Under the pieces are notes generated by a model. The model searched no databases and was not told the origin of the DNA. It saw only the letters and a list, made by a program, of their open reading frames with translations. Below, in pieces: positions 10,514 through 31,101 of a stretch of DNA of 64,000 nt (its first letter is position 1; each line of letters begins with the position of its first letter). The position numbers and the translations under genes were made by a program. The stretch lies in assembly GCA_002404835.1 (NCBI GenBank), contig DHKM01000035.1:96921-160920 (forward strand), written 5' to 3'. Source of the stretch: Bacillales bacterium UBA4694. GTDB taxonomy: Bacteria; Bacillota_I; Bacilli_A; RFN20; CAG-288.

Positions 10514-12193
10514 TTAAAACGAAGTTAAAGTGTTATCATTCGGCTGATTTACCAAGCAGTCTAAGTAATCGATCTTGACGCTATTGAATCCCGTATAACT
10601 GTATTTTTGATTGTAATATTGTGTGGATGAATCATCGCTTACTGTAAAGATTCCACCTAACAAGACTTCAGAATTCGAGGTATTTTTTGAATCGTAACTT
10701 ATGGTAAGGAGGATACCGGCAGAGGTCAGTCCTCCTAAAGAGAGAATAGACTGGAATAGCTGTGTGGTTAGATATTTTGCAAGTGGACCATCATTGTAGA
10801 ACATGGATGTCTTTTTTGCTTCGTCATCACCAGTATTTAGGACGAAACGGAACATTTCATTTTGGAGATAATCGAAAATCAATGTGATGTTTTCGTAAGA
10901 ATCATAATAATGGTCGTAAGTTCTACCTTCATCAATATATTTATCTTTTACAATGACTTCCATATTTCCGTCTTCTTTATTTACTTCGAAATTGTAAACA
11001 CCATCATAGGAATTGTTATGAAGTTCTATCAGTCCATGACGTGTAACGGAAAAAGTTTCATCATCCTTGTTTTCTTCTATGTATTCATCGGAATAATCGA
11101 AATAAATGTAATTTTTCGTATAATAGCATTTTCCTATCGGAATTTTTGTGCCATCCCTTTTGGTAAAAGTTCCCAAATCCCGGTAATAGTTGTGGTTCTT
11201 ACTTAACTTGTAGATATTTTCAATGGCAGGAAGTAGTTCAGGTTTTTGTATATGATTGGTCTTTAGGTATTCTTCCAGCCTTGTATCGTTCTTTGTGTCA
11301 TTTTTCCTGAATGTAAGAAAAGCATAATCGGAATCATTGAAATAAAGCGAAACTTTGAATTCTGTTGGGGATATGACTTCAAAATCTCCTCTGGTGGTAC
11401 TTTTCAGCACATTCTGGATTTCTTCTGTTGTGAAGGATTCAAACTGGGCGACCTGAAGGAAAAAAGACTGGATCAAAGTCGAGTTGTTCTCGATAGGATA
11501 GAAATTATCTTCGGATAATGTCTTTGGAAAAGAAAAGCCGGAAAGGTTGGCTAAGGTGATGAACATGCTCTGATAATTTTCATAATAATTTCTTAAAAGC
11601 ACAGGATTTTGAATCTGATCATTCACAATTTCATAGGTGAAAACTCCATCATCGGAATTGCCAAAGCCATGACTTTCCGTATCGTTTTTATAGATGATAC
11701 TATCCTGATAATATTGGATATAGGATGTGACATTGTTCAAAGACTGTATGTTCCAGTCTGTTTGGATGGTATATGTTTTTTCGCGGATGAAATTTTTGAT
11801 AACATTGTCAGGTACCATGGATTCAGTGACTTCGATTTCCTTGGTTGCTTTTACGGAATTGTCTTTTTTATATTTGGCCGTTACTATTGCTTTTCCCAAC
11901 GCGATTCCTTTGACAATACCAGTTGAAGAAATTGTGAGGATGGATTTATCCGAAGAAGTGAATTCAACCATGGAAGAATCGAGTTTCTCTCCATCCAGCA
12001 AAACAGAAAATGTAAAATATTCCCCTTTGCCGATGTTGTCTCGTCCTTCCAGGGCAAGTTTCTTTTTTATTGTTTCCGTTTGAGAATTTTGGGAACTCGT
12101 ATTTGTTTTTTTGTTAGATGCAGTGCTGTTTTTTCCACAGGAACTAAGCAAAATAGCCAAGGAAAGAAGAATTCCCTGTTTAAAGTGCTTCAT
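10514..12193 (-). CDS. Surface lipoprotein with an N-terminal Big_2 (bacterial Ig-like) domain
   Basis: Signal peptide plus lipobox (LAILLSSC). Big_2-like FTSSDKSILTISSTGIVKGIALGKAIVTAKY. 559 aa, Tyr/Asn-rich. Overlaps the upstream gene by 14 nt. Confidence 0.8.
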   Translation of the reverse strand: MKHFKQGILLSLAILLSSCGKNSTASNKKTNTSSQNSQTETIKKKLALEGRDNIGKGEYFTFSVLLDGEKLDSSMVEFTSSDKSILTISSTGIVKGIALGKAIVTAKYKKDNSVKATKEIEVTESMVPDNVIKNFIREKTYTIQTDWNIQSLNNVTSYIQYYQDSIIYKNDTESHGFGNSDDGVFTYEIVNDQIQNPVLLRNYYENYQSMFITLANLSGFSFPKTLSEDNFYPIENNSTLIQSFFLQVAQFESFTTEEIQNVLKSTTRGDFEVISPTEFKVSLYFNDSDYAFLTFRKNDTKNDTRLEEYLKTNHIQKPELLPAIENIYKLSKNHNYYRDLGTFTKRDGTKIPIGKCYYTKNYIYFDYSDEYIEENKDDETFSVTRHGLIELHNNSYDGVYNFEVNKEDGNMEVIVKDKYIDEGRTYDHYYDSYENITLIFDYLQNEMFRFVLNTGDDEAKKTSMFYNDGPLAKYLTTQLFQSILSLGGLTSAGILLTISYDSKNTSNSEVLLGGIFTVSDDSSTQYYNQKYSYTGFNSVKIDYLDCLVNQPNDNTLTSF

Positions 12194-13871
12194 ATTGGCT
12201 CCTTGTTATAGAATAACTGACGGTGGAACGGCTGTCGTCGTAATGGAACATGGTGTCTTTGCCATAGGCATTTTCAAACTTGTCTGCCTCAAAACAGATA
12301 TGGATTTGTTTGGCTTCTTTTGTGGTAGAACAGAAAGCCATGGTTCCGATACTCTTTATGGATTTCGGAAGATAGACTTTGCTGAGATTGACGAATTCAG
12401 CAAAAGCATATTCCCCAATCGTTTCGATTCCGTCGTTGAAACTGATTGGTGATATTTTTGGGCAGCTTTCGAAGGCATGATTACCGACTTCTTTTAAAGA
12501 TGACGGGAATTTTACAATTGTTAGCCCAGAGCATGAATAGAAGGCACTTTCTTGAATCTTTACCAAAGACGAAGTGGAAAAGTCCATCTCTTTTAGTCCA
12601 TAACAATTGATAAAGGCACGGCTTTCGATTTCTTTTAAACTGGATGGAATATTTACGCTTGTCAAAGACTGACAGTTACTGAAACAAGCTTCTTGGATCT
12701 TCTCAAGTCCATTTGGTAGGACAAGGGAAGTAAAAGCACGGCAGTTATCAAAGGCTCTGCTTCCTATTTCGGTAACAGTCGATGGGATATTGATTTTTGT
12801 AAGGCTAAGACAGCCTCGATAGGCATTGGAACCTATTTTTGTAAGATTGGAAGGAAGTGCCGAGACCGTGGTCAACTTGGAACAATTTTCATACGTAGAG
12901 TCCGGTAGAATTTCATAATCGAAATTCAGTTTAGCTAAAACTAGATTTTTGTCGTTCTTCAAAACACCTTTTCCAAATTCTTGGATGGATGACGGGAGAG
13001 TGATTGATGTCAGGCCTTCGTTTTCGCTTAGAGAAAGATCCTTGAGTATTTTTAAATTATTGGCTTTATTCAAATTGAGGGTTGTCATATTCTTCAATGC
13101 GGCTAGACCACGATATCCGATTTCTTTAAGGGAAGAAGGAAGAGAGACACTTTGGAGAGACATATTACCATAAATGGCATAGTCTCCTAGTATCTCTACT
13201 CCATTTGGAATATCAAATGTCGTGTTTGTTAAGGCAGTGGGATAGTAAAGGAGTTTTTTTCCGTCTTTTGTGTAAAGGATACTATGATCGACTTTGAAAT
13301 AATTGCTATCTTTTTCCAGTTTGAATCTTTCTAGACTAGTACAAAGATGGAAAGCATCGCTTCCGATTGTCTTCAAAGTTGATGGGATGACAATTGTTTT
13401 TAAACTCGGACAATCATCGAAAGCAGATTCTTGTATTTCTTCTAATCCCTCTGGAAGATCAAGCTCTGTTAATTCGCTGTCAACTATCATTCCACGAAAA
13501 GCATTCTTCTGGATGACTCTCAGTGATATTGGAAGAGTGAGCTTGTCGATTTGGAGATCTTGGAAGACACTTTCTTTGATTTCTCTTACTGGAAGCCCAT
13601 TATATAGTTCCGGTATTACGATTTCTGTGTCTGGACTTAAATATTGGCTTACAATATAGCCGTCTTTGCTTTTATTCAATTCAAATTCTAAGCCGTCTGT
13701 ATAATACGTTTTGGAGTAATGATCACTAGTTTTGCTTGGTGTGGTTTTCTGACTGGTTTTGCTTGTCTGGGAAGTATTCTGTGAGGGAGAGGAAATGGGA
13801 TTTTTCTGACATCCAGTCAGTGAAATGGTAGCTAGTACTACTACGAATAATAGTTTATTTGCTTTTTTCAT
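12180..13871 (-). CDS. Surface lipoprotein with BspA-type leucine-rich repeats (LRR_5)
   Basis: Lipobox ISLTGC. About 10 repeats of the IPSS(L/V)xxIGxxAFxxCxxLTS(V/I) type, e.g. INIPSTVTEIGSRAFDNCRAFTSLVLP. Confidence 0.85.
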   Translation of the reverse strand: MKKANKLLFVVVLATISLTGCQKNPISSPSQNTSQTSKTSQKTTPSKTSDHYSKTYYTDGLEFELNKSKDGYIVSQYLSPDTEIVIPELYNGLPVREIKESVFQDLQIDKLTLPISLRVIQKNAFRGMIVDSELTELDLPEGLEEIQESAFDDCPSLKTIVIPSTLKTIGSDAFHLCTSLERFKLEKDSNYFKVDHSILYTKDGKKLLYYPTALTNTTFDIPNGVEILGDYAIYGNMSLQSVSLPSSLKEIGYRGLAALKNMTTLNLNKANNLKILKDLSLSENEGLTSITLPSSIQEFGKGVLKNDKNLVLAKLNFDYEILPDSTYENCSKLTTVSALPSNLTKIGSNAYRGCLSLTKINIPSTVTEIGSRAFDNCRAFTSLVLPNGLEKIQEACFSNCQSLTSVNIPSSLKEIESRAFINCYGLKEMDFSTSSLVKIQESAFYSCSGLTIVKFPSSLKEVGNHAFESCPKISPISFNDGIETIGEYAFAEFVNLSKVYLPKSIKSIGTMAFCSTTKEAKQIHICFEADKFENAYGKDTMFHYDDSRSTVSYSITRSQYEAL

Positions 13872-15337
13872 TTTGTTTCTCCAAGTTGGTAGTTCAAAAG
13901 ATAATCTGGAATGGTTGTTTTTGATAAGTCTTTATAGGTTATTGTTCTTACAAGTTTTGTCTTAGTGGATTCTCCCACGGTAACGTTTCCTTCCATTGTA
14001 ATCTTGGATATATTTTCTTTTGAACTGTCAAGATATACTTTAAGTTCATATCCCGAACTTTGCTCAAATATAGGAACCAAAGCACCGATACAATATTCAT
14101 AGGTGGAAAGATAAGTGGTGAAATATCCATCTTCCTCTTTGAAGCAGTCAGGAGAAAGATAGGAAAAATAAGGAAGAAGGTCGATAAAATGATAAGTATC
14201 GTCTTCTGCCCCTAAGTAAGAATTGAGTTCTTTGGACTGAAGAACGCTGTGCGGTTCCATTGCATCGAAAGAGATAACATAAGGTTTCTTGCCTTCCGAC
14301 GTCATTAGATTTTTATAGCAAAGGTAATAATCGTATTCTTTAGTTGTTGTTTCTCCGCTTTCGTCCTTCAGGGTGAATTCCCTGGACCTCTTTGCATTGC
14401 AGAAGATGTTATTGTTATCTATACGATATTGATAGGATTCGTCTTCGTTTGGCGCAGACAGATAATGGTCATTGAATTCGATGGTATAGTTTGATGCATT
14501 TTTGATTTTGTCTAAAGCGGATTTAAGATAGGCATGGTTTTCGCTATGAGCATATGGCTTTATGGTTCTAGGGGTCGTGGAGCCGATATTATAGGCATCT
14601 AGTTCAAAAAGAAATTGATAGGCGCTTTGATAATCGTCGTCATCGTTAGATGCGTCAAGTTGAATTCTAAAACGATCTATTTGATCGCCGTCATAATGGA
14701 ATGCCAATTGTGTGACAACCAACGTCATCCCACCTTCTAATGGTTTTGTAACTTCATACCCAGTGAGGAAATAAGCCAGGTTCTTTTTGTCGGTATTATT
14801 CACGAATTCATACCAGTCCGGCATTTTCCGGATACCTTTTATGTTCTTCACTTCCAAGTCTTGGAATGGATTCTTCATCTTCTCACTGTATAGGTCATTG
14901 CTTGGAATGTCTAATACTTCATTGGTTAGGAGATTTAATTCATGGGAATGGAATTTCCCGTCTTTTCCCTGATAAAAAGATTCGCTTGTCAAAAGATCAT
15001 CGGTCGTTTGATCTGATTCTTCGTAATAATAGGAACTTTGGTTTACTTCAAGAAGGCAGTTGTTTGTTTCTTGATTTTCGCTGGAAGACCCTTGAGAAGA
15101 ATAACTGGATGTAGATATGACTGTACCCTTTAAGGTAAAACTAGTCGTAAAGGCTTCAAGTCCTTCTTTTAATTTTGTATAGGTCCCTTTGGTGGATACG
15201 ATACTAGGTTGCTGTTGTTGGCTGTTCGAAGTTTTTTCACTCGGATTCGAAGGGGATGATGGTGCACTTTGGCTTGGTGAGCAAGACGCTAACAAGGCCA
15301 AAGATAACGATAAGATAAAGCTAGTTTTGTGATTCAT
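13868..15337 (-). CDS. Lipoprotein, function unknown (distant paralogue of 10514..12193?)
   Basis: Lipobox LALLASC followed by a Ser/Pro/Gln-rich linker. 489 aa, Tyr/Asp-rich. ATGA-type 4-nt overlap with the next gene. Confidence 0.75.
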   Translation of the reverse strand: MNHKTSFILSLSLALLASCSPSQSAPSSPSNPSEKTSNSQQQQPSIVSTKGTYTKLKEGLEAFTTSFTLKGTVISTSSYSSQGSSSENQETNNCLLEVNQSSYYYEESDQTTDDLLTSESFYQGKDGKFHSHELNLLTNEVLDIPSNDLYSEKMKNPFQDLEVKNIKGIRKMPDWYEFVNNTDKKNLAYFLTGYEVTKPLEGGMTLVVTQLAFHYDGDQIDRFRIQLDASNDDDDYQSAYQFLFELDAYNIGSTTPRTIKPYAHSENHAYLKSALDKIKNASNYTIEFNDHYLSAPNEDESYQYRIDNNNIFCNAKRSREFTLKDESGETTTKEYDYYLCYKNLMTSEGKKPYVISFDAMEPHSVLQSKELNSYLGAEDDTYHFIDLLPYFSYLSPDCFKEEDGYFTTYLSTYEYCIGALVPIFEQSSGYELKVYLDSSKENISKITMEGNVTVGESTKTKLVRTITYKDLSKTTIPDYLLNYQLGETK

Positions 15338-19689: not shown

Positions 19690-20202
19690 TCAGTCTTCGG
19701 CTCTCTTCCTCAAAATGATTTCGCTGTCTTGGTAGTTGATTTTATAATATCCTTCTTTTAAGTAGGCTTTGGATAGGGATTCTTCGAAAATCGGAATAAT
19801 CTGGTTTCCGTTGTCGTCTTTGTACACTGCCTTTTCCTTCTTTTCCTTGGAGATGTCCTTTAAATTATGGAACGTCAGAATTTCGGATAACTGGTCGCTT
19901 CTTTTCTTTTTGAAAGACAGAGAGAGGTAATTGGGACGTTGGCTTGTCACGCTATCGAAAAGGACATTGATTCCGGATGCATCATGGTATTCGCTCTTCT
20001 GGATTCTCTTTACCACAAGGGAATAGGAAATCCCCTCTTCTAAAATCTTTCCATCCTTTTCCTGGTAACCAGAAAATGTTCCGACCCGGAATATATTTTT
20101 TCTTTCGTTTGTTTTGCAGGAAGAGAGAGAGGAGGAAAATAGAAATAGGAAAAGACAAATACTGGTTTTCTTCTGAAACGAAAAAACTTTTCCAAACTTC
20201 AT
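19690..20202 (-). CDS. Small lipoprotein (170 aa), unknown function
   Basis: Signal plus lipobox (FSSSLSSC), with GAGGA upstream of the ATG. No terminator separates it from the upstream operon. Confidence 0.7.
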   Translation of the reverse strand: MKFGKVFSFQKKTSICLFLFLFSSSLSSCKTNERKNIFRVGTFSGYQEKDGKILEEGISYSLVVKRIQKSEYHDASGINVLFDSVTSQRPNYLSLSFKKKRSDQLSEILTFHNLKDISKEKKEKAVYKDDNGNQIIPIFEESLSKAYLKEGYYKINYQDSEIILRKRAED

Positions 20203-20262: not shown

Positions 20263-20973
20263 CTATTTTATACTCTCCTTTTGATGGAGTTCTTTCATGC
20301 CATCAACTGTGTCGCAGATTTCCTTGAAAGAGCAGGTGCTGCAATCCATTTTAAGATTTTTCATGATATGGTCTAAGGCAACGGTGATTCCTTCGCTTTT
20401 CTTTGACAACGATTCCAACGTTTTATAATCAAAGGCCGGATCCGTAATGAAAATTTGCTTTACGGATTTGACTTCATTTTGACTTTTGTAATGGTCTAAG
20501 AAAAGTTTGCCGATGTCTTTGAAAGAAATTCCTCTTTGCAGAGCATCATAGGAAATACGTATGCTCTCCTTAAGAAGACCGGTGTGGAATTTCAACATGA
20601 CTCCATCGGGATTGATTTTGTATCTTGTATATTCTACATTCCTTATGGTTCGGTAAAGTTCCTGTTCTTTTTTTTCACATTCTTTTAGAAAAACAAATGA
20701 AATATGGGCATAAGATAAGTGGCTTTTTAGGTCCTTGATATCATTTCCTATAAGTAAGATTTCATCTTCCAAAGAATGGTCGATTCCTTGTTCGTAGCAC
20801 ATCAGATAAGGTGAAGGGACTAGGGAAGAGCCGAGTGTTAAAGCAGTATCGGAAGCAAAAAGAAAGGTTTTTTCGTTTCCTTCCGGATAAGTTGAATTTA
20901 TATCCAGTCGTGTACTATTGAATTTTCCAACTAGAAGATCGGCTTCCTTGATAATTGATTCGTATAATTTCAT
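20263..20973 (-). CDS. 236-aa Cys-motif protein resembling the central domain of acetyl-CoA synthase (AcsB/CdhC-like fragment); last gene of the operon
   Basis: ATGA overlap with the preceding micro-ORF. Segments ILLIGNDIKDL, IRISYDALQRGISFKDIGKLFLDHYKSQNEVKSVKQIFITD and the C-terminal MDCSTCSFKEICD (C-x2-C-x5-C) match my recollection of the AcsB region just before and at the first A-cluster cysteines. The family call is unverified. Confidence 0.55.
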   Translation of the reverse strand: MKLYESIIKEADLLVGKFNSTRLDINSTYPEGNEKTFLFASDTALTLGSSLVPSPYLMCYEQGIDHSLEDEILLIGNDIKDLKSHLSYAHISFVFLKECEKKEQELYRTIRNVEYTRYKINPDGVMLKFHTGLLKESIRISYDALQRGISFKDIGKLFLDHYKSQNEVKSVKQIFITDPAFDYKTLESLSKKSEGITVALDHIMKNLKMDCSTCSFKEICDTVDGMKELHQKESIK

Positions 20974-21149
20974 TCAAGATGACGGTTTCTCTTTCTTTTA
21001 TCGTATTTTTTATTTATCCATTTTTGAATAACGGCTAATAATTTGCTATCAAGATTGAAAAAATATACGATGAAAAGAAGAATCAGCATAAGAAGAATGA
21101 ATCCGAAAAGTGAGCCTAATACAATGAGTAGAATCTGCCACCATGACAT
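20970..21149 (-). CDS. 59-aa single-pass membrane peptide (not in the ORF track)
   Basis: Hand translation gives MSWWQILLIVLGSLFGFILLMLILLFIVYFFNLDSKLLAVIQKWINKKYDKRKRNRHLE. GAGGTG lies 7 nt upstream. It starts 1 nt after the activase stop, and its TGA overlaps the next ATG. Confidence 0.55.
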   Translation of the reverse strand: MSWWQILLIVLGSLFGFILLMLILLFIVYFFNLDSKLLAVIQKWINKKYDKRKRNRHLE

Positions 21150-21150
21150 A

Positions 21151-21954
21151 TCAGTTCACCTCGTTTAATCCTTTCTGACGAGCATATTCTGCAGCACCCA
21201 AGGCCCCCATGAGCTGAGGATCAATAGGAAGATCTTTCACCTTAAGATGCAAAACACGTTCGATTGCCTGCTTCAGTCCGAGGTTTTTCGCACAGCCACC
21301 GGTTAATGCGATGGAATCTGTGGCTCCAGCTTTTTTAGCCATGACGAAACATCTTTTGGCAACAGAGGTCATGATTCCTGCTGCGATTTCTTCCATCGGC
21401 TTTCCTTCGCCAACCAATGAAATGACTTCCGATTCACAGAAAACCGTACATTGAGAAGTGATGGGGATGACGTTCTTTGCTTTAAGGGATAAGGAACAGA
21501 ATTCATCCAAATCCATTTCAAAACTTCTTGCCATGGCCTCAAAGAATCTTCCTGTTCCGGCAGAACATTTATCGTTCATGGCAAAGTTCATGACAGTGCC
21601 ATCTTTTGGGTCAATGGCTATTCCCTTTATATCTTGGCCCCCGATATCGATAATGGAAGTGATGCTAGGGTCAGTGATATGGACACCCATGCAATGGCAG
21701 GAGATTTCCGATATGTTTTCATCAGCAAAAGGCACTTTATTTCTTCCATATCCTGTTCCAATCAGATAATCGAGATCTTCGATTTTGTTCAGTCCATCGA
21801 CTTGGGAAATGGTTTCTTCTAAAGCGATTCTTGCACTTTCGACTGGATTGATTTTCGATTTCAAAGTTGTATGGGCGACCATTTTTCCTTTTTCATCAAG
21901 AATGACGCATTTTGTATAGGTAGAGCCAGCGTCGCAACCGCCAAAGTATTTCAT
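21151..21954 (-). CDS. ATP-dependent activase of 2-hydroxyacyl-CoA dehydratase / BcrAD-BadFG family (ASKHA ATPase)
   Basis: MKYFGGCDAGSTYTKCVILDEKG... and IDIGGQDIKGI, CAGTGRF, LTGGCAKN motifs. The track start at 21975 is a TTG, so I use the ATG at 21954 with an AGAAAGGA SD. Confidence 0.9.
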   Translation of the reverse strand: MKYFGGCDAGSTYTKCVILDEKGKMVAHTTLKSKINPVESARIALEETISQVDGLNKIEDLDYLIGTGYGRNKVPFADENISEISCHCMGVHITDPSITSIIDIGGQDIKGIAIDPKDGTVMNFAMNDKCSAGTGRFFEAMARSFEMDLDEFCSLSLKAKNVIPITSQCTVFCESEVISLVGEGKPMEEIAAGIMTSVAKRCFVMAKKAGATDSIALTGGCAKNLGLKQAIERVLHLKVKDLPIDPQLMGALGAAEYARQKGLNEVN

Positions 21955-21968
21955 GTTATTTTTCCTTT

Positions 21969-23525
21969 CTACCAACGTTCGGTATCGTCAAAATCGACAA
22001 GGCTGTCATCCAAAGGCGTTTCTCTCATGACGGTCTTCATATATCGGTTGACATCTTCACGCATGTCTTTTCTTGAGGCTTTTGTCGGATTCATCAAGGC
22101 ATGGTAAACCCAAACGATATGGATACCTCTTTTTCTTCCTTCTTCTTCCAATAATCCATGATAACCGGCCATGGATTTACATCCGATATGTTCGTACATA
22201 ATGACCATGTCTGCGTTATATTCTTCGCAGTACTGCCAGAGCTGTTCGACACCGACTTCATAGCCGCCATTGGAATGATTTCTCATGATCATATTCATGT
22301 TGTATTCACCAAGATCCAATAAAGCTTGCTCATGGTCCTCGTAATGAATTGGTTTGGTCAAGGTAAAAGAAAGCATATCACAAAGGCAGACGATACCCCA
22401 GCAATTGCTTAACCACTGATTGAAAGCAGTGTAATATTGGGCATGAACGCCCCAAACCAAAGCCCTATGACGGATTTCCTTACAAGGAAGGACATGATTC
22501 TTATATCCTTCTTTTGCAAGTTGAGTAATCTTTTGATCGTATTTTAGGAATGAAGCATCTCTTCCTGAAATGACCATATATTCTGCATCACGGTAGAGCA
22601 TGACGTTGTTGTTGACGACTTGCGGATAGTTTGTTTTGTTCATTTCCATCCATTCTTCGAACAAGGCATTCTGAGCATTGTAGGTCTTCATGTTTTTGCT
22701 AAAGGCATCCCAGTCCCATTTTTCACCGGTATGTTTTTCGATGAAATGTATTGCTTCAACAATTTGATCTCTTGAATAAGCCAAAACGGATTTCTGCTGA
22801 TGCCTCATCGGAGCAGCCATCGTAAAGGATGGCAAATCGTCGTGTCTATCTTCGATCTGGTTTCCCATAAGCGAACCGTCGCAGGTCGTATTGCAATGAA
22901 TGGCACAGACTCCGCAGATCGGATAGTCTTCGTCGATGGCACAGCCGAGTTCTGCACAGGGCATAGGACAGACATCCCCTGGAATCTGGAATTCTTCCGC
23001 TACTTCGATGTAATGCATGACTCCAGTCTGACTGATAGTAGAACCGGTATAAATAGCCGGGACTTCCTTGGATAGGAACTTCAAATTTGGGAATCCGGTA
23101 GCAATGACCATCATTCCGTTTTCGTCCATAATGACGAGTTTCTTGTTCAATTCATCGTATTTTCCGTTTTTGTTTCCGATTCTCTTGTCACATTTGAACA
23201 AAGTATCCATGGTCTGGGTAAGATGCTCAACGATGGAATCGTATTCGATATGTCCGATTCTCAGCTGCGGACCTCGTACTCCCTCCATGTGTCTATCGAT
23301 ATAATCGAAAGCTGCAAGGTAGTTTCCAAACCATCGATAAGTGAACATGGCTTTTAACGTAGTCGGTTTCATAATGAACTTTCCCATGACAAGAAGGTTA
23401 TGCAACCATCTCGAGAAATCATACATGGTGTCTTTGAATCCGCGCCATTCACGATGTTTATATGTTTTCTTGCCAGGATTTTGTAGCTTTCCGAGCTTTT
23501 GTTTCTGTGTCCTAGTGTCTTTCAT
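21969..23525 (-). CDS. 2-hydroxyacyl-CoA dehydratase / benzoyl-CoA reductase BcrBC family (HGD-D) protein, large subunit
   Basis: 518 aa from the ATG at 23525, 2 nt after the upstream stop, with an AAGGAGA SD. It carries a Cys-dense loop GDVCPMPCAELGCAIDEDYPICGVCAIHCNTTCDGS. The C-terminal ADMVIMYEHIGCKSMAGY is typical of the family. Confidence 0.75.
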   Translation of the reverse strand: MKDTRTQKQKLGKLQNPGKKTYKHREWRGFKDTMYDFSRWLHNLLVMGKFIMKPTTLKAMFTYRWFGNYLAAFDYIDRHMEGVRGPQLRIGHIEYDSIVEHLTQTMDTLFKCDKRIGNKNGKYDELNKKLVIMDENGMMVIATGFPNLKFLSKEVPAIYTGSTISQTGVMHYIEVAEEFQIPGDVCPMPCAELGCAIDEDYPICGVCAIHCNTTCDGSLMGNQIEDRHDDLPSFTMAAPMRHQQKSVLAYSRDQIVEAIHFIEKHTGEKWDWDAFSKNMKTYNAQNALFEEWMEMNKTNYPQVVNNNVMLYRDAEYMVISGRDASFLKYDQKITQLAKEGYKNHVLPCKEIRHRALVWGVHAQYYTAFNQWLSNCWGIVCLCDMLSFTLTKPIHYEDHEQALLDLGEYNMNMIMRNHSNGGYEVGVEQLWQYCEEYNADMVIMYEHIGCKSMAGYHGLLEEEGRKRGIHIVWVYHALMNPTKASRKDMREDVNRYMKTVMRETPLDDSLVDFDDTERW

Positions 23526-23527
23526 AG

Positions 23528-24721
23528 TCAAGCATTCTCCTTACCCTGGATTTTCTTGATTTCCAGAGCTTCGATGAAGGCCTGGATTCTTGTTCTCAGC
23601 TGGCCGGATTGGCCTACATTGTAGGGTCTATCGATACTAAGTGTTTTGTAGTGATATTGGTTTTGCATGACAGCATTCATGAACGCTCTTCCATATCCCC
23701 AATAGTCACAGAATTTGATCTGTTCGATGATTATTCCGTCGACTTTGTATTCTTTGGCAATTTTATCGATATAGGCATGTCTTTCGTTGACTTTTTCTGT
23801 TGTTAAGAATCGTGGACATTGTCCAGATTCCATATAGTATCTACAGACTTGGGTCAAGGCATCTTCTTCAGCGTTCAGCTTTATTTCTTGTCTTCCTGGT
23901 AAGGAACCGAAACAATATCTGTCTGCAACGATGATCAAACCGCATTCTTCAGCCAATTTCAGAAGCTGTGGATCATCGATTTCGGATCCGACTAGGGCTA
24001 CTCTGGCACGATAGGTCCCTTTTTTGTCCGGAATTCTAGTCTTAAGTTCTTCGCATGTTTCTTCGAGTTTCTGAATCAGCTTGTCTTTTGGACAACAGTA
24101 TGTGCTAAGACAAAGGACAGCAAACTCGTATCCTGTGATTCGGGGTTGTTCATCTTTTCTGTATTCCCCGATTTCTGTAATCAGTCTGGAAATGATATTC
24201 TGTTCCTCTACTGCCTTTCTGATGGCATTATCGGAAATGTCGATATGAAAGTGTTCGTTGAGAGGCTTAAGAACATGTTCCTTCATCTGGAGAACATAAT
24301 GCTTCAATGTCGTTTCATCGGATTTCATCGGTACATCGACGTATGAAGCAAAGAAACCTTCATTAGGACAGCAGTCTAGGTGTTCAATGTTTTCAACGCA
24401 TCGGTTCATCATGGCACAAGCTTCTGGAGCGATAATGGCATTTAGAAAGTTGAATCCCCCTTCCAATGCTCTTTCCAGGATGGCTCGACAAGCTTCGCAG
24501 AAAATCGGAGACAAATAATAGTTTCCCATTTCGGTCGTTCCCGTTCTGGGTGCTCTAAGGCGAACAGAAAAAATGCCCGGAAGATTCAAAAGCGGTTCCG
24601 GAATCTGATAACAGACGTGTCCGATTGCTTTTCTTCCTTCCGCCTGAGCTTCCGAAATGAGGTCGTTATAGGAGTTTTCGAGAAGCTTTTCGAAATAGTA
24701 CAAGTGTTTTAAATCTCTCAT
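23528..24721 (-). CDS. 2-hydroxyacyl-CoA dehydratase / BcrBC family (HGD-D) protein, small subunit
   Basis: 397 aa. Family-typical LVGSEIDDPQLLKLAEECGLIIVADRYCFGS and VDGIIIEQIKFCDYWGY (KFCD motif). A TAGGAGA SD overlaps the stop of the upstream gene. Confidence 0.8.
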   Translation of the reverse strand: MRDLKHLYYFEKLLENSYNDLISEAQAEGRKAIGHVCYQIPEPLLNLPGIFSVRLRAPRTGTTEMGNYYLSPIFCEACRAILERALEGGFNFLNAIIAPEACAMMNRCVENIEHLDCCPNEGFFASYVDVPMKSDETTLKHYVLQMKEHVLKPLNEHFHIDISDNAIRKAVEEQNIISRLITEIGEYRKDEQPRITGYEFAVLCLSTYCCPKDKLIQKLEETCEELKTRIPDKKGTYRARVALVGSEIDDPQLLKLAEECGLIIVADRYCFGSLPGRQEIKLNAEEDALTQVCRYYMESGQCPRFLTTEKVNERHAYIDKIAKEYKVDGIIIEQIKFCDYWGYGRAFMNAVMQNQYHYKTLSIDRPYNVGQSGQLRTRIQAFIEALEIKKIQGKENA

Positions 24722-24730
24722 ATTTATCTC

Positions 24731-25498
24731 CTAGAGAACATGAATCTTTTCCAAGGCTTCTTTTGCTCCTTTGACAATGTAGCTGTCATCATCGAGGAAA
24801 AACACATTTTCGCCATCCATATCGTAACGAGCAAGTTTGTCATCCATAGGAATTCTACTGAGGAGAGGCAAAGGTGATAGATCGAAATCTTCCTTCATTG
24901 CCAAAGGTGAGAGACGATTTGCAATCACTCCGATTTCTTTGTACATGACAAGGGAGTCGGCTACTGATTTGATGGTCTTGACTACCTGAATGCCTTTTTT
25001 GCTTTGATCTGTGACAAGAATCAAATGGGTTACCTTTTCCATGACTCGGCGATTGATTTGTTCGATACCAGCTTCACCATCGATTACCACATAATCATAA
25101 TGAGAGGAAATCTGAGCAATGACTTCTTTTAAATAGGTATTGATTTTGCAGTAGCATCCGCTAGCTTCCGGCCTTCCTATTGCCATGAAGGAAAAACCGT
25201 TTTTCTCGACTAGGGCTTCTTCAATCGAATAGCTTGCGTTGCCAAGAACTTCCACAACGGCATTTTTACCGCCATCTTCGCTGGCTTTTATAGCCTCTTT
25301 TCTTACGTCATCAATGGTCTTGCTTGGTTCGATTCCTAAAGCTGTGGACAGACCGATGGCAGGATCAGCGTCGATGGCAAGGATCCTCTTTTCTTTTTTG
25401 TTTTCGACCAAAAGTTTTACGATTACGGCTGCAAGAGATGTTTTACCAACTCCTCCTTTTCCTGCGACTGCGATGATGCACGGTTGATTGTTTTCCAT
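24731..25498 (-). CDS. CooC/AcsF-type (MinD/ParA superfamily) metallocluster-maturation ATPase, first gene of the operon
   Basis: Deviant Walker A AVAGKGGVGKTSLAA plus a Cys pair in EASGCYCKINTYL (the CxC motif of CooC-type proteins). The track start at 25552 is a TTG, so I use the ATG at 25498 (MENNQPCIIAVAGKGG). Confidence 0.75.
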   Translation of the reverse strand: MENNQPCIIAVAGKGGVGKTSLAAVIVKLLVENKKEKRILAIDADPAIGLSTALGIEPSKTIDDVRKEAIKASEDGGKNAVVEVLGNASYSIEEALVEKNGFSFMAIGRPEASGCYCKINTYLKEVIAQISSHYDYVVIDGEAGIEQINRRVMEKVTHLILVTDQSKKGIQVVKTIKSVADSLVMYKEIGVIANRLSPLAMKEDFDLSPLPLLSRIPMDDKLARYDMDGENVFFLDDDSYIVKGAKEALEKIHVL

Positions 25499-25599
25499 AT
25501 TTTGCCTTTCTGTATAAAAACACGTAAATATTTTAATGGATTGGCCTCTCAAAAGAAAGCGCTTCCTAATGAAACGGGAAATGTTATATACGACTAATC

Positions 25600-25631
25600 A
25601 AAGAAAAACAGTCGGTATTAGCCGACTGTTT
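25600..25631 (-). terminator. Rho-independent terminator after the 229-aa lipoprotein gene
   Basis: ACAGTCGG (25608-25615) / CCGACTGT (25622-25629). On the minus strand it is followed by TTTTTCTTTG. Confidence 0.6.
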
Positions 25632-25638
25632 AATTATT

Positions 25639-26328
25639 TCAGGATTTGGTCAACGTGAAGAGAGTATCAGTCTTTAAATTTTCAAGAACCATCTTGGTTT
25701 CGACAAGGCTCTTCGAGACAATGCGGCCGATAGATGTCCAAGTGTCCTCTTGTTTTGTCAGAGGAAAAATTAGTTCTTTTCCGTTTTTCATACCGATTTC
25801 CAAGGGGAGAAGGGAATTCTTTTCATCTTCGATGAGGAAAGCATCTGTGTTTGATAATTTCAAAGAAACAGAATCCGTAGAAAGAAAAGAGAGATCCTTT
25901 TTTTGAAGCAAAGAGTTTATTTGTCTTGTTGTATTGTTTTCATAGAATTCGAAATCAAATTTTATCGATGAAGAATCATTTTCCAGAATCGCATGTTTTT
26001 TTGAATTATCGCGTTTACCAATCCAGTTTGCTGTCAGAGTCATGTTGGTAGAAACGACTCCAGTTTTGAAATCCCATGGGCTATCGTCAAAATACCATCC
26101 AAGGAATTCATATCCAGAGCGCACTGGATTTTTTATTTCCGATATCTTATCTCCACGATTTAGGTTCTCGTAACTATCTTCCTCTCCATTTTCATAGGAG
26201 AAGGTGACTTTTATGATATCCGTATGAGCATCTTCGGTATAGCTTTTTTGATTGATGAAATACGTTCTGCTTGCGCAGGAGCATAGCAACAAAAATGGTA
26301 AGACATAAAGGAATTTTCTGGATTTCAT
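25639..26328 (-). CDS. Lipoprotein with a Listeria-Bacteroides repeat (Flg_new) domain
   Basis: Lipobox FLLLCSC. The motif NPVRSGYEFLGWYFDDSPWDFKTGVVSTNMTLTANW is the GYxFxGWY...TLxAxW repeat. Confidence 0.7.
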   Translation of the reverse strand: MKSRKFLYVLPFLLLCSCASRTYFINQKSYTEDAHTDIIKVTFSYENGEEDSYENLNRGDKISEIKNPVRSGYEFLGWYFDDSPWDFKTGVVSTNMTLTANWIGKRDNSKKHAILENDSSSIKFDFEFYENNTTRQINSLLQKKDLSFLSTDSVSLKLSNTDAFLIEDEKNSLLPLEIGMKNGKELIFPLTKQEDTWTSIGRIVSKSLVETKMVLENLKTDTLFTLTKS

Positions 26329-28506: not shown

Positions 28507-31101
28507 TTAGACGATACTCAAGTATTTGTTTTCGATTTCTCCCTTTTCCCACAATCCTTTCTTGGATTCTGGAACAAGGACGAAATGACCGGGTTTCATT
28601 TCACACCAATGGCATTTCTCATAGTCCAGATTTGCCTTGTGATAGACATATTTCTGTTTGCTGCCGTTGGTTTTCGGATCGGGCTGGGGGATTGCAGTAA
28701 GAAGAGCTTTAGTATAAGGGTGGATTGGATCTTTATAAATGTCTTCTGCATTTCCTAATTCTACGATATGCCCCTGATGCATGACTGCAATTCTATCTGA
28801 AATGTAGCGGATAATGCTTAGATCATGGGCGATAAATAGATAAGTAAGGTTCTTTTCTTCCTGCAATTTTCTGAGAAGATTCAGAACTTGTGCTCGGATA
28901 CTGACATCAAGTGCAGAAATCGGTTCATCGGCAAGAATGAGTTCGGGTTCGATGACTAGTGCTCTTGCGATTCCGATACGCTGCCTTTGACCACCGGAGA
29001 ATTCATGTGGGTAACGGCTTAGGTGTTCGGGAAGAAGGCCGACAGATTCCATTATCTCAGTCACCTTACTGATTCTTTCTTCTTTGCTTTTGAACAGATG
29101 GAAATTGTATAGTCCCTCACTGACAATATAGTCGATGTTTGCTCTTTCGTTCAAAGAAGCTGCAGGGTCCTGGAAAATCATCTGGATATTCTTTTTCGAC
29201 TGCTTTTCTTCTTGTTTTGTGAGCTTTTTGGAGATGAGTTTTCCTTTGAAGTAGATGGCACCGCTATGGAGTTTGTTTATGCCAAGGATTGCTCTGGAAA
29301 TGGTTGTTTTCCCGGAACCGGATTCTCCGACTAAGCCGAAAGTCTCTCCGACATGGATATCGAAATTAAGATTCTGCGAGGCTTTAACTACGTTCTTTCC
29401 GCTACCGAAGTAAATGTTTGCGCTGACGACCGAAAGGAGGATTTCTTTTCCTGTACGATCTGTTGTCGGGAAATACTCCAACATTCCGGTCTTCTTATCA
29501 ACGCGGTATTTATACTGTTGAATTGGATTTTTCTTTATTTCGCTGAGCGTTTTCTCATCTAGGATTTTTTCCAGGAATTCCTTTTTGAATCTATTCTTTC
29601 TGAACTTGCTTGGAAGGATGTTTGAACCTTTGTAGTATATGGCACCTCGGATTTTTACATCTTTGGAGTAGAATGCTCGGACAATATAGATGAGTGCTTC
29701 GGATTTTTTGTCTTCGAATTTATCCCCTTTCTTATAGTCCATGGAGAAATCGTGATCGAATATATAATCTCCATCTTCGGATACGATATTCACACGGTCG
29801 AATCTAACTAGGATGTCCGAATGCTTCATTCCGTTTAGACTTTGTGGAATAAAGGTGAGGTTATCGGGGTAGTATTGATCAAAATAGTCTGTTAGTTGAA
29901 GAAGGCGGAATCGATCTTCGACCGTGAATCTACTATTGATTCGAATAAAATCTTCATTGTCATTTAAATAGATTCCTGTTGCATTTTCAGCTTTGATTCG
30001 TCGTCTTTCCACTTCGCTTTTTGACATCGAGGATGGAATCAACATTCCATCTAGATATAAAGCGCCAGTTAGTATTGTTTTATGGAAAAACAGAGATTGG
30101 ACGATTTTTAGTTTGATCTTGTCTTCTTCATCTTTAAGGTTGAAGGAATGGTCGGCAATGATATTGAAATTGGAGAATTTTTTATCATACCCCAATAATT
30201 CAACATCTGCGTTGAGGACACTGATGGAGATGGGATGGTTTTGTCTATCTCTCATCGGATAGAAAAGTGGATATCCGGTTTGTCTGTCTTTGGTTACATT
30301 CATAAGGATGTAATCTTTGTCTTCGACGCTGAAATTCTTTTTGACGAAAGATTTTTCTAGATAAAGTCGGAATTCTTCTGTTAGGGAAGAGGGAAGTAGT
30401 TTTCCTTTGTAATAGAATCCTTTTACTTCCTTGTCTTTATCCAAAAGGGATTTGATTACGGTGATTTTGCTGATGTCATCCTTTGAATTTAAATCAAAAA
30501 GATCGCCTTGGAATATTTCGAAAGTGTAACTATCTTTGGCTAGATTTTTGTTTTGCTTGTCCTGGATTGTTGCTTTATAAGCTCGGAAGATGACTTTCTT
30601 TCCGCTTTTTGTTTTGGTTGGAAGATAACAGAGTGGGACATCTGCCTTAAGGGAACAGGACTCAATGATTTCCTTGTCTTCGCTGTGAAAATAGCGATCC
30701 ATGAATAACCACATAAGGTTTGTCTTGAATTTTCTATCAATTTTATCTGTGCAGAATTTCCCTTTGAAGTAGATGGCACCACCTGTCTTTCTTTCCTGTG
30801 AGAACAATGCGAAGAGAAAATCGAGTTTTGCAAGCTGCTCTTTGTTTTCGGAATCGAATTCTTCGCTTTCCAAAACATCGAAGCAGTAGGATTTGTTCGA
30901 CAATGACTGCCCTTTTAGGTTGCTTATTTTTCCGTCTACGACCTTGATAAGAACATTTTTGGCAAATTTGTTCTTCAAAGGTATACTTAGAGGAAAACCG
31001 TATTTGTTCAAGGGGGCTCTTTTGCGGATTTCGTCGAAATCGTCACTTGTCAGCATGGAAAGCGCGTCATCATTCCTGGGCTGTTTTATGTTGTCCTTCA
31101 T
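28507..31101 (-). CDS. oppF: Oligopeptide ABC transporter ATPase OppF with a ~550-aa N-terminal extension
   Basis: The canonical NBD occupies residues ~553-864: Walker A GESGSGKT, signature FSGGQRQR, Walker B LILADEPISALD, H-loop FIAHDL, and an oligopeptide C-terminal domain. GGAGG lies upstream of the ATG at 31101. The extension is internally repetitive (see findings). Confidence 0.9.
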   Translation of the reverse strand: MKDNIKQPRNDDALSMLTSDDFDEIRKRAPLNKYGFPLSIPLKNKFAKNVLIKVVDGKISNLKGQSLSNKSYCFDVLESEEFDSENKEQLAKLDFLFALFSQERKTGGAIYFKGKFCTDKIDRKFKTNLMWLFMDRYFHSEDKEIIESCSLKADVPLCYLPTKTKSGKKVIFRAYKATIQDKQNKNLAKDSYTFEIFQGDLFDLNSKDDISKITVIKSLLDKDKEVKGFYYKGKLLPSSLTEEFRLYLEKSFVKKNFSVEDKDYILMNVTKDRQTGYPLFYPMRDRQNHPISISVLNADVELLGYDKKFSNFNIIADHSFNLKDEEDKIKLKIVQSLFFHKTILTGALYLDGMLIPSSMSKSEVERRRIKAENATGIYLNDNEDFIRINSRFTVEDRFRLLQLTDYFDQYYPDNLTFIPQSLNGMKHSDILVRFDRVNIVSEDGDYIFDHDFSMDYKKGDKFEDKKSEALIYIVRAFYSKDVKIRGAIYYKGSNILPSKFRKNRFKKEFLEKILDEKTLSEIKKNPIQQYKYRVDKKTGMLEYFPTTDRTGKEILLSVVSANIYFGSGKNVVKASQNLNFDIHVGETFGLVGESGSGKTTISRAILGINKLHSGAIYFKGKLISKKLTKQEEKQSKKNIQMIFQDPAASLNERANIDYIVSEGLYNFHLFKSKEERISKVTEIMESVGLLPEHLSRYPHEFSGGQRQRIGIARALVIEPELILADEPISALDVSIRAQVLNLLRKLQEEKNLTYLFIAHDLSIIRYISDRIAVMHQGHIVELGNAEDIYKDPIHPYTKALLTAIPQPDPKTNGSKQKYVYHKANLDYEKCHWCEMKPGHFVLVPESKKGLWEKGEIENKYLSIV

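What the first reader, a model, noticed from the sequence alone, without database searches (positions are those of the whole stretch)
20263..20973. 236-aa protein looks like an excised central domain of acetyl-CoA synthase that stops just after a C-x2-C-x5-C motif
Seen: three segments stand out, ILLIGNDIKDL, IRISYDALQRGISFKDIGKLFLDHYKSQNEVKSVKQIFITD and, 20 residues from the end, MDCSTCSFKEICD. From memory (unverified), the AcsB/CdhC region that precedes the A-cluster has the same pattern: ..IEVIGPDID.., ..RVSKDAVAKGFxFKNYGEIL...V.VTIFTD.., then C-x2-C-x8-C-x9-C. Here the protein ends before any fourth Cys and before the Cys-Gly-Cys that binds the Ni ions in ACS. Inference: this is a stand-alone ACS-derived module. 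It would retain at most part of a [4Fe-4S] site and would need to complete the cluster at an interface with another subunit (the HGD-D proteins?) or as a dimer.
Basis: partly seen in the sequence, partly recalled or inferred. Interest (0 to 1): 0.7.

Follow-up and report, generated by a model that had tools for sequence, protein, structure and literature searches.

The report
ACS-derived iron-sulfur module in reductase operon
This 236-residue protein is a stand-alone relative of the middle domain and first metal-binding loop of acetyl-CoA synthase; in hundreds of gut and rumen anaerobes it is encoded beside a nickel-chaperone-like ATPase and an ATP-driven iron-sulfur reductase, an enzyme system that no paper found here describes.

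Summary
A 236-aa ORF lies at 20263-20973, on the minus strand, and contains all three quoted segments. Its homology to the central (A2) domain of acetyl-CoA synthase (ACS) is supported three ways. A family profile hits only ACS in the PDB. hhalign against 53 real ACS sequences gives 97.9% probability (E 5e-13). The top 23 Foldseek hits are all ACS. C211, C214 and C220 are 99% conserved in 140 diverse members. They align collinearly with the first three cubane cysteines of the A-cluster, but this is only weakly significant (p about 0.05). The protein does not stop before the fourth ligand position. Residue 227 aligns with it and is Cys in 8 members; H230 is 84% conserved; one divergent subgroup has an extra upstream Cys. 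The Ni-binding Cys-Gly-Cys and the rest of domain A3 are absent.

The gene is last in a tight operon: CooC-like ATPase (Cys-x-Cys motif), two HGD-D subunits, activase, a 59-aa membrane protein, then the ACS-like gene. One HGD-D subunit has the six cysteines of a double-cubane [8Fe-9S] site. All four partners occur in 42 of 50 informative loci, and the association persists across phyla with rearranged order. No CODH, AcsC or AcsE genes are nearby.

Best reading: an Fe-S subunit of a new CooC-matured, ATP-driven reductase. The substrate is unknown.

The parts
20263..20973 (-). ACS-like protein, 236 aa: the finding. It comprises an ACS A2-type central domain, a linker helix and a Cys loop.
   Evidence: ORF and translation. 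Family of 232-260 aa proteins. AF2 model with pLDDT 87. Foldseek top 23 hits are all ACS. hhalign against ACS gives E 5e-13.
20431..20907 (-). Residues 23-181: the region homologous to the ACS central (A2) domain. Shared motifs are vELG (46-48), IGxD (75-78) and R-[VI]-S-K (139-142; R-I-S-Y in this protein).
   Evidence: Profile against PDB: query 23-181 matches Moorella ACS 318-472. hhalign confident core is 26-193 against ACS 290-453. PF03598 matches residues 69-179.
20284..20346 (-). Residues 210-230: metal-binding loop D210-C211-x2-C214-x5-C220-D-x-V-D-G-M-K227-E-L-H230. K227 aligns with the fourth A-cluster cubane Cys.
   Evidence: C211/C214/C220 are 99% conserved, D210 90% and H230 84% in 140 members. 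Alignment to ACS SC-TL-C...HVC...GLC. Shuffle control p about 0.05.
20970..21149 (-). 59-aa single-pass membrane protein. Its stop overlaps the ACS-like start (ATGA).
   Evidence: ORF. Junction sequence. Orthologues in 46 loci with conserved Y29, N32, D34, K36, Y49. No Pfam hit.
21151..21975 (-). HgdC/BcrAD-type ATP-dependent activase ('archerase'). The probable true start is the ATG at 21954, giving 267 aa.
   Evidence: PF01869 E 2e-52 and TIGR00241 E 9.5e-65. Cys130 and Cys169 (numbered from the MKYFGG start) are invariant.
21969..23531 (-). HGD-D family large subunit (alpha, 520 aa), BzdO/MbdO/DCCP-like. Invariant C188, C217, C377, C451; C209 is 96% and C213 91% conserved.
   Evidence: PF06050 E 6.6e-38. 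PDB hits MbdO and DCCP. Cysteine conservation in 47 orthologues.
23528..24721 (-). HGD-D family small subunit (beta, 397 aa), BzdN/DCCP-like, with the six cysteines of a double-cubane [8Fe-9S] site (C37, C75, C102, C270, C302, C338).
   Evidence: PF06050 E 2.7e-80 and NF040772 double_cubane E 1.7e-38, below cutoff. Residue-by-residue alignment to 6eno and BzdN. Invariance in 42 orthologues. Ligand definition from PMC7317905 and PMC11971306.
24731..25498 (-). CooC/AcsF-type MinD-family ATPase, 255 aa from the ATG at 25498 (the mechanical ORF starts at a TTG at 25552). It has a GKGGVGKT P-loop and an invariant Cys-x-Cys (GCYCK).
   Evidence: Best PDB hit is CooC1 3kje, E 1.4e-14, with GCYCK aligned to QCYCR. 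The CxC is invariant in 44 orthologues. Start codon and ribosome-binding site.
25606..25631 (-). Terminator-like hairpin of the upstream lipoprotein gene. It marks the 5' boundary of the operon.
   Evidence: Terminator scan: 10 pairs followed by a T run. Sequence.

Best explanation
The 236-aa protein belongs to a large, uncharacterised family descended from acetyl-CoA synthase. It keeps the A2 domain, the A2-A3 linker helix and the roughly 20-residue loop that holds the [4Fe-4S] cubane of the A-cluster in ACS. It lacks the rest of A3, including the Ni-binding Cys-Gly-Cys.

I propose that it binds an Fe-S cluster, most likely a [4Fe-4S] cubane. The ligands would be C211, C214, C220 and, in this protein, H230. 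I further propose that it acts as a dedicated third subunit or docking partner of a heterodimeric, ATP-driven low-potential reductase of the double-cubane/benzoyl-CoA-reductase class. In that scheme, electrons go from the HgdC-type activase (ATP hydrolysis) to the [8Fe-9S] cluster of the beta subunit and then to the alpha subunit. The ACS-like module either passes electrons in or out or contributes its cluster to the active site. The CooC-type ATPase, the most constant neighbour, would mature the metal site of the ACS-like module or of the complex, as AcsF does for ACS, probably with nickel. The small membrane protein may tether the complex.

Shown here: the homology, the conserved cysteines, the operon and its conservation, the six-Cys double-cubane signature, and the CxC motif. 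Inferred: cluster type, physical association, electron path and nickel. The substrate is unknown. It is probably not an amino-acid-derived acyl-CoA, because no CoA-transferase or CoA-ligase was noted among the Pfam-annotated genes or the recurrent neighbour clusters. It may be a small or unactivated molecule.
For: Homology to ACS A2. Invariant C-x2-C-x5-C across 140 members that share 19-100% identity with the query. The same Cys-to-A-cluster mapping appears in three independent profile alignments, with position 227 on the fourth cubane Cys, where 8 members have Cys. Four-ligand sets arise in three different ways: H230, C227, or an upstream Cys. One member, P0172, is fused to a 2x[4Fe-4S] ferredoxin, which points to a redox role. 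The operon is tightly packed, with an ATGA overlap. All four partners occur in 42 of 50 informative loci, and the activase lies directly upstream in 10 of 10 short loci with at least 900 bp of upstream sequence. The association is retained with a different gene order in Deltaproteobacteria-type and other divergent loci, where ACS-like and CooC-like genes are always adjacent. The six invariant beta-subunit cysteines align with the DCCP and BzdN double-cubane ligands (PMC7317905; PMC11971306). The CooC-like protein keeps the CxC nickel motif. CooT, a nickel chaperone, is present in one clade.
Against: No metal content, complex formation or activity has been measured, so everything beyond homology and synteny is inference. 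The C-terminal tail alone does not find the A-cluster region. The Cys mapping has only p about 0.05 in a tail-shuffle control. AF2 confidence in the Cys region is modest (pLDDT 59-69). About 10% of members have only three candidate ligands. A Cys3His site could equally bind Zn or Ni. Eight of 50 loci lack some partners nearby, and three have none within 10 kb. CooC-family ATPases are assumed to handle nickel by analogy only. The ACS residues that bind acetyl-CoA (catalytic His, adenine-stacking Trp) are not kept in the query's clade.
Confidence: 0.55

Rival explanations
1. Maturation scaffold. The ACS-like protein and the CooC-like ATPase form an assembly pair. They build or hold a metal centre (Ni or an Fe-S unit) transiently and hand it to the HGD-D subunits. 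The ACS-like protein would not be part of the working enzyme.
For: ACS-like and CooC-like genes are adjacent in every divergent clade examined and in L052. The exposed, flexible C-terminal Cys loop has lower pLDDT, which suits a transfer site. The alpha subunit has three extra conserved cysteines (C209, C213, C377) that could receive a metal.
Against: The gene is translationally coupled within the structural operon. One member is fused to an electron-transfer ferredoxin, not to a chaperone domain. Its only known relatives, ACS enzymes, are cluster-bearing catalytic proteins and not chaperones.
Confidence: 0.2
2. Non-redox accessory. The module binds a ligand such as CoA or a nucleotide on the A2 surface, or acts as a regulator or adaptor, and the Cys3(His) site is a structural Zn or Ni site.
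For: In ACS, A2 carries most acetyl-CoA contacts (bioRxiv 10.1101/2024.08.05.606187). The RVSK motif and, in 16 of 140 members, the adenine-stacking Trp are retained. CCCH sites are often zinc sites.
Against: The Trp and the catalytic His are lost in the query's clade. The Cys loop is collinear with a cubane-binding loop. There is a ferredoxin fusion. The whole operon is otherwise Fe-S redox machinery.
Confidence: 0.12
3. Split or minimal acetyl-CoA synthase. The module still takes part in CO, methyl or acetyl chemistry as part of a non-canonical carbonyl branch.
For: The ancestry is in ACS. A CooC/AcsF-like maturase and, in one clade, CooT are present. A Lachnospiraceae organism shows acetogenesis and CO-dehydrogenase activity without canonical CODH/ACS genes (PMC7000372).
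Against: There is no Cys-Gly-Cys and no A3. No CODH, AcsC or AcsE lies in any of the 88 family loci or in the window. The acetyl-CoA residues are not conserved. Hosts include reduced-genome Bacilli and saccharolytic rumen bacteria. Whether the organism of PMC7000372 carries the operon was not tested.
Confidence: 0.04
4. Decaying fragment of an ACS gene with no function.
For: It is truncated relative to ACS, and the query scores below the Pfam cutoff.
Against: There are 767 representatives at 50% identity, found in at least 582 species genomes. Length is constant at 232-260 aa. Motifs are invariant despite identity to the query as low as 19%, and synteny is conserved.
Confidence: 0.01

Closest known systems
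Acetyl-CoA synthase (AcsB / CdhC; PF03598; for example PDB 1oao, 1ru3, 6ytt)
   Same: The A2 central-domain fold and its motifs (vELG, IGPD, RVSK, IFTD), followed by a linker helix and a C-x2-C...C loop collinear with the first three cubane ligands of the A-cluster. There is a CooC/AcsF-type ATPase as neighbour.
   Different: There is no A1 domain and no A3 beyond the first roughly 25 residues. There is no Cys-Gly-Cys, and so no Ni-Ni site of the ACS type. Spacing is x5 instead of x8. The fourth ligand is usually His, or absent. The acetyl-CoA-binding His and Trp are not kept in this clade. It is never next to CODH, CFeSP or methyltransferase genes.
Benzoyl-CoA reductase BzdNO(PQ) and double-cubane cluster protein DCCP with its reductase (BCR I/HAD family; PDB 8s02, 6eno)
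   Same: The partner genes are two HGD-D subunits, one of which carries the six Cys of an [8Fe-9S] double cubane, plus an HgdC/BcrAD-type ATP-dependent electron activator.
   Different: In the papers consulted here, those systems have no ACS-like subunit, no CooC-type ATPase and no small membrane protein. Here there are no aromatic-degradation or CoA-ligase genes nearby.
AcsF/CooC nickel insertases with their clients (ACS, CODH)
   Same: A MinD-type ATPase with a deviant Walker A motif and a Cys-x-Cys motif, encoded next to a protein that carries A-cluster-type cysteines.
   Different: The client lacks the known Ni ligands of ACS, so what CooC inserts, and where, is unknown.
2-Hydroxyacyl-CoA dehydratases (HgdAB/HadBC with HgdC/HadI)
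   Same: The Pfam family (HGD-D) and the activase architecture.
   Different: Dehydratase subunits bind [4Fe-4S] through three Cys each. Here the beta subunit has the six-Cys double-cubane pattern. No CoA-transferase or dehydrogenase genes accompany the operon.

Membership tests
Acetyl-CoA synthase / CdhC (EC 2.3.1.169) | Central (A2) domain, PF03598 | tested here: met
   The family profile hits only ACS in the PDB. 21 of 26 members hit PF03598. hhalign E 5e-13. Foldseek E 4e-10. The query alone is below the gathering cutoff (18.2 against 24 bits).
Acetyl-CoA synthase / CdhC (EC 2.3.1.169) | Four cysteines binding the A-cluster cubane (C-x2-C-x8-C-x9-C) | tested here: not met
   The query has only three Cys, with x5 spacing. 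Position 227 (Lys) aligns with the fourth Cys. The mapping itself is weakly supported.
Acetyl-CoA synthase / CdhC (EC 2.3.1.169) | Cys-Gly-Cys motif and A3 domain binding the two Ni ions | tested here: not met
   The protein ends 16 residues after C220 and has no CGC. Real ACS has CGC about 90 residues further on.
Acetyl-CoA synthase / CdhC (EC 2.3.1.169) | Genomic association with CODH, corrinoid Fe-S protein and methyltransferase | tested here: not met
   Probes for CODH, AcsC and AcsE from 80 real ACS loci give no hit in 88 family loci or in the window.
Acetyl-CoA synthase / CdhC (EC 2.3.1.169) | Acetyl-CoA-binding residues of A2 (Arg383, His386, Trp405 in C. autoethanogenum numbering) | tested here: not met
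   In the alignment, ACS R-R-I-H pairs with query I110-R111-N112-V113, and the Trp pairs with S137. Trp is present in only 16 of 140 members.
Double-cubane / class I BCR-type ATP-dependent reductase (the partner enzyme) | Six cysteines coordinating an [8Fe-9S] cluster in an HGD-D subunit | tested here: met
   C37, C75, C102, C270, C302 and C338 are invariant in 42 orthologues and align with the DCCP and BzdN cysteines (PMC7317905).
Double-cubane / class I BCR-type ATP-dependent reductase (the partner enzyme) | HgdC/BcrAD-type activase with two cluster-bridging cysteines per monomer | tested here: met
   TIGR00241 E 9.5e-65. Invariant Cys130 and Cys169, 39 residues apart. Their assignment as ligands rests on my recollection of HgdC Cys127/Cys166.
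Double-cubane / class I BCR-type ATP-dependent reductase (the partner enzyme) | Actual [8Fe-9S] cluster and ATP-dependent reduction activity | not testable with these tools
   This needs metal analysis, spectroscopy and enzyme assays.
CooC/AcsF nickel insertase (the neighbour) | MinD-type deviant Walker A plus a Cys-x-Cys metal site at the dimer interface | tested here: met
   GKGGVGKT and GCYCK align to CooC1 3kje. The CxC is invariant in 44 orthologues and present in distant loci.
CooC/AcsF nickel insertase (the neighbour) | Nickel binding and delivery | not testable with these tools
   Only circumstantial evidence: CooT in one clade.

The most novel reading that the evidence does not exclude
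The operon encodes a previously unrecognised nickel-iron-sulfur enzyme. The ACS-derived loop holds a cubane. Its second cysteine (C214, the equivalent of the Ni-bridging Cys509 of ACS) bridges to a nickel ion delivered by the CooC-like ATPase. The remaining Ni ligands come from the extra conserved cysteines of the HGD-D alpha subunit. ATP-energised electrons stored in the [8Fe-9S] cluster drive reduction of a difficult substrate at this hybrid site. That substrate could be an unactivated alkene or alkyne, or a C1 compound. In some Lachnospiraceae the system could even be the missing non-canonical carbonyl-branch enzyme.
Probability: 0.15. Interest if true: 0.9.

Novelty: new variant of a known kind. 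Interest (0 to 1): 0.7.

Why it matters
ACS is one of very few enzymes with a Ni-bridged Fe-S active site, and its domains were not known to me to occur outside CODH/ACS. Here a piece of it, including the cluster-binding loop, has been reused in a different enzyme system. That system combines an ATP-driven double-cubane reductase with a CooC-type metal insertase. It is present in at least 582 species, many of them abundant gut and rumen fermenters with small genomes and no CODH or ACS-partner genes near the operon. If the complex forms as proposed, it extends the BCR/HAD/DCCP enzyme family with a new subunit type. It may also extend the short list of biological uses of nickel, and it gives CooC-type chaperones a client other than CODH and ACS. 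In addition, it corrects a recurrent misannotation ('carbon monoxide dehydrogenase', 'CODH/ACS beta subunit') that could inflate counts of Wood-Ljungdahl genes in gut and rumen metagenomes.

Tried and rejected
(1) A single-sequence PDB search with the query found only a chance FosB hit (E 0.78), so a profile was needed.

(2) The C-terminal 54 residues alone against the ACS profile gave no significant hit to the A-cluster region (best hit elsewhere, E 0.032).

(3) A forced global alignment of the tail to the collinear ACS segment, with column shuffles, was poorly posed. Free end gaps produced a meaningless overlap, so I discarded it. I replaced it with the fixed-core, shuffled-tail test (p about 0.05).

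(4) An Rfam scan of the whole window found no riboswitch or other RNA that could hint at a substrate or metal.

(5) Literature searches for the gene combination found no description. The isoprene-reductase paper (PMC10134865) concerns a different protein, IsrA. The double-cubane review (PMC7317905) and the BzdNO paper (PMC11971306) do not mention nickel, and the review does not mention CooC.

(6) The idea that the module keeps the CoA site of ACS was rejected for this clade, because the catalytic His and the stacking Trp are not conserved.

(7) A search for domain fusions across the family found only the single ferredoxin fusion.

(8) The accessory proteins of about 440-495 aa in divergent loci have no significant Pfam or PDB match.

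(9) HypA, CooT and IsrA-like genes are absent from the 64-kb window.

Full report
**Observation.** The interval 20263-20973 holds a 236-aa ORF on the minus strand. The plus strand is closed by stops. It starts at an ATG that overlaps the stop of the preceding gene (ATGA) and ends at TAG. The cysteines are C211, C214 and C220. Moorella ACS reads IEVIGPDID and RVSKDAVAKGFRFKNYGEIL...VTIFTD. Real ACS sequences read CTLCQSFAPTHVCVIAPERVGLC.

**Homology to ACS.** The query alone gives only weak hits below cutoff, but they are consistent. PF03598 scores E 0.0024 over residues 69-179, and three NCBIfam ACS/CdhC models cover the same region. Thirty close homologues of 232-245 aa were found and aligned (A1).
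- A profile of A1 hits 14 PDB sequences, all of them ACS, with query 23-181 on Moorella ACS 318-472.
- 21 of 26 members hit PF03598, best E 5e-9.
- An AlphaFold model from A1 is confident (pLDDT 87, pTM 0.81), and less so over the last 35 residues.
- Foldseek against the PDB returns 23 ACS chains at E 4e-10 to 3e-5, and the next hit is at E 0.3.
- I fetched 80 genuine ACS loci from metagenomes, extracted 53 full ACS proteins and ran hhalign against a 140-member family alignment. This gave probability 97.9% and E 5e-13, with a confident core of query 26-193 on ACS 290-453.
- A divergent subgroup of about 260 aa scores above the Pfam cutoff (52 bits) and aligns to ACS at E 9e-15.

The A2-domain homology is therefore established.

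**The cysteine loop.** In 140 members that share 19-100% identity with the query, conservation is 99% for C211, C214 and C220, 90% for D210, and 84% for H230. They are the only invariant columns in a 78-sequence alignment. Greedy hhalign alignments put C211 and C214 on the ACS C-x2-C and C220 on the third cubane Cys after a 3-residue deletion. They put residue 227 on the fourth cubane Cys (ERVGLC against EVEGMK). Eight members have Cys at 227 (EVEALC). The divergent subgroup aligned to ACS gives the same mapping.

The support is limited, however. The tail alone is not significant. With the core fixed and the tail columns shuffled, 8 of 150 shuffles also pair three Cys columns. I therefore treat the mapping as likely but not proven.

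The fourth ligand varies: H230 in 84% of members, C227 in 8 members, an extra Cys four residues before C211 in the divergent subgroup (C-x3-C-x2-C-x5-C), and nothing obvious in about 10%. The Cys-Gly-Cys and the remainder of A3 are absent.

**Gene context.** The gene is the last of six tightly packed minus-strand genes, which follow a terminator-like hairpin at 25606-25631.
- A CooC-like ATPase. Its best PDB hit is CooC1 (E 1.4e-14), with GCYCK aligned to the Ni-binding QCYCR.
- An HGD-D beta subunit of 397 aa.
- An HGD-D alpha subunit of 520 aa.
- An HgdC-type activase (TIGR00241, E 9.5e-65).
- A 59-aa single-pass membrane protein.
- The ACS-like gene.

The beta subunit has six invariant cysteines. 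They align one-for-one with the six double-cubane ligands of DCCP and with BzdN. In BzdN these bind an [8Fe-9S] electron-storage cluster (PMC7317905; PMC11971306). The alpha subunit has four invariant and two nearly invariant cysteines. The partner is therefore a DCCP/BCR-type ATP-driven reductase and not a dehydratase.

**Conservation of the association.** The family has 767 representatives at 50% identity (497 at E <= 1e-10). The best 150 are all stand-alone proteins of about 235 aa, or fragments. At least 582 species genomes encode it. Most are gut and rumen Lachnospiraceae (Pseudobutyrivibrio, Butyrivibrio fibrisolvens 16/4, Roseburia), Christensenella, Oscillospiraceae, Treponemataceae and Bacilli MAGs.
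- In 42 of 50 loci with at least 5.5 kb upstream, all four partners are present. In 10 of 10 truncated loci with at least 900 bp upstream, the activase is directly upstream.
- One clade reorders the genes and adds CooT and a His-rich DUF8180 protein.
- Divergent clades, including a Deltaproteobacteria MAG, have the order HGD-D, HGD-D, two activases, ACS-like, CooC-like.
- The most divergent subgroup has HGD-D, HGD-D, an Ldi-family protein, an unknown protein, ACS-like, CooC-like.
- The ACS-like/CooC-like pair is adjacent in all of these divergent loci, and the CxC motif is retained.
- One member is fused to a 2x[4Fe-4S] ferredoxin and followed by CooC.
- Probes for CODH, AcsC and AcsE taken from real ACS loci find nothing in 88 family loci or in the window.

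**What it most likely does.** The simplest model is that the module carries an Fe-S cluster on its C-terminal loop and works with the alpha/beta reductase. It would act as an electron-transfer subunit or as part of the active site. The CooC-like ATPase would mature a metal site in it or in the complex, by analogy with AcsF and ACS. Rivals are a transient assembly scaffold, a non-redox ligand-binding accessory with a structural metal, and a split ACS. The acetyl-CoA contacts of ACS A2 are not kept in the query's clade. The stacking Trp survives in only 16 of 140 members. The substrate is unknown. Neighbours in other clades (Ldi, IsrA-like oxidoreductase with HypA, GMC oxidoreductase) hint at unactivated organic molecules, but these neighbours are clade-specific.

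**Novelty.** Seven literature searches and several papers read found no description of this gene combination. Public names are 'hypothetical protein', 'carbon monoxide dehydrogenase' or 'CODH/ACS beta subunit'. A Lachnospiraceae organism with acetogenesis and CO-dehydrogenase activity but no canonical CODH/ACS (PMC7000372) is an untested lead for a C1 role.

**Verdict.** The finding is real. The ACS ancestry is supported. The system is a new variant of the ATP-driven Fe-S reductases, with an ACS-derived subunit and a CooC-type maturase. Its chemistry remains open.

Noticed in passing
window 20970-21149 (minus): A conserved 59-aa single-pass membrane protein lies between the activase and the ACS-like gene, with an ATGA overlap onto the ACS-like start. 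Orthologues occur in 46 loci with conserved Y29, N32, D34, K36 and Y49. It has no Pfam match. A membrane tether has not been described for HGD-D or activase systems in the papers consulted.
   Followed up: partly
L054 10916-13798 and L063 13744-14088 (and 17 other Lachnospiraceae loci): An oxidoreductase of about 960 aa (Fer4_20 + Pyr_redox_2 + ferredoxin motifs) has the domain architecture of the putative isoprene reductase IsrA. It is followed by the nickel chaperone HypA, and the pair sits directly downstream of the ACS-like gene. Both are absent from the window.
   Followed up: partly
L165 235-1161 (protein P0172): One family member is fused at its C-terminus to a 2x[4Fe-4S] ferredoxin domain and is followed by a CooC-like gene.
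   Followed up: partly
L169 4803-6557 and 6637-7947: In the most divergent subgroup, a linalool dehydratase/isomerase family gene (PF18566, E 2e-74) and an unannotated 436-aa gene sit between the HGD-D genes and the ACS-like/CooC-like pair. No activase was seen within 8 kb.
   Followed up: partly
L170 2351-3838 and L171 2428-3876: Unannotated proteins of about 490 aa, preceded by a GMC oxidoreductase, lie directly upstream of the HGD-D genes in Deltaproteobacteria-type loci. They have no significant Pfam or PDB match.
   Followed up: partly
L001 5025-5261 and 9035-9223: One clade adds a His-rich 78-aa protein (precomputed PF26551, DUF8180) at the head of the operon and CooT (PF10133, E 6e-16) just before the CooC-like gene. 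The same clade has Cys at position 227 of the ACS-like protein.
   Followed up: partly
window 28507-31101 (minus): An 864-aa protein carries about four repeats of roughly 130 aa, each ending in a '...GAIYFKGK'-like motif, ahead of a C-terminal ABC ATPase domain. The repeats look like serial copies of the start of the ATPase domain.
   Followed up: no
window 10514-15337 (minus) and 19690-20202, 25639-26328 (minus): There are several lipoprotein genes with Cys lipoboxes (LLSSC, LTGC, LASC). Three are consecutive, and one carries a Listeria-Bacteroides repeat (PF09479). They flank the operon but are not conserved next to it in other genomes.
   Followed up: no
L068 8174-11246: Pseudobutyrivibrio sp. 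ACV-2 keeps the CooC-like, activase, TM, ACS-like and HypA genes but lacks both HGD-D genes and the IsrA-like gene at this locus. This is apparently a deleted version of the cluster.
   Followed up: no
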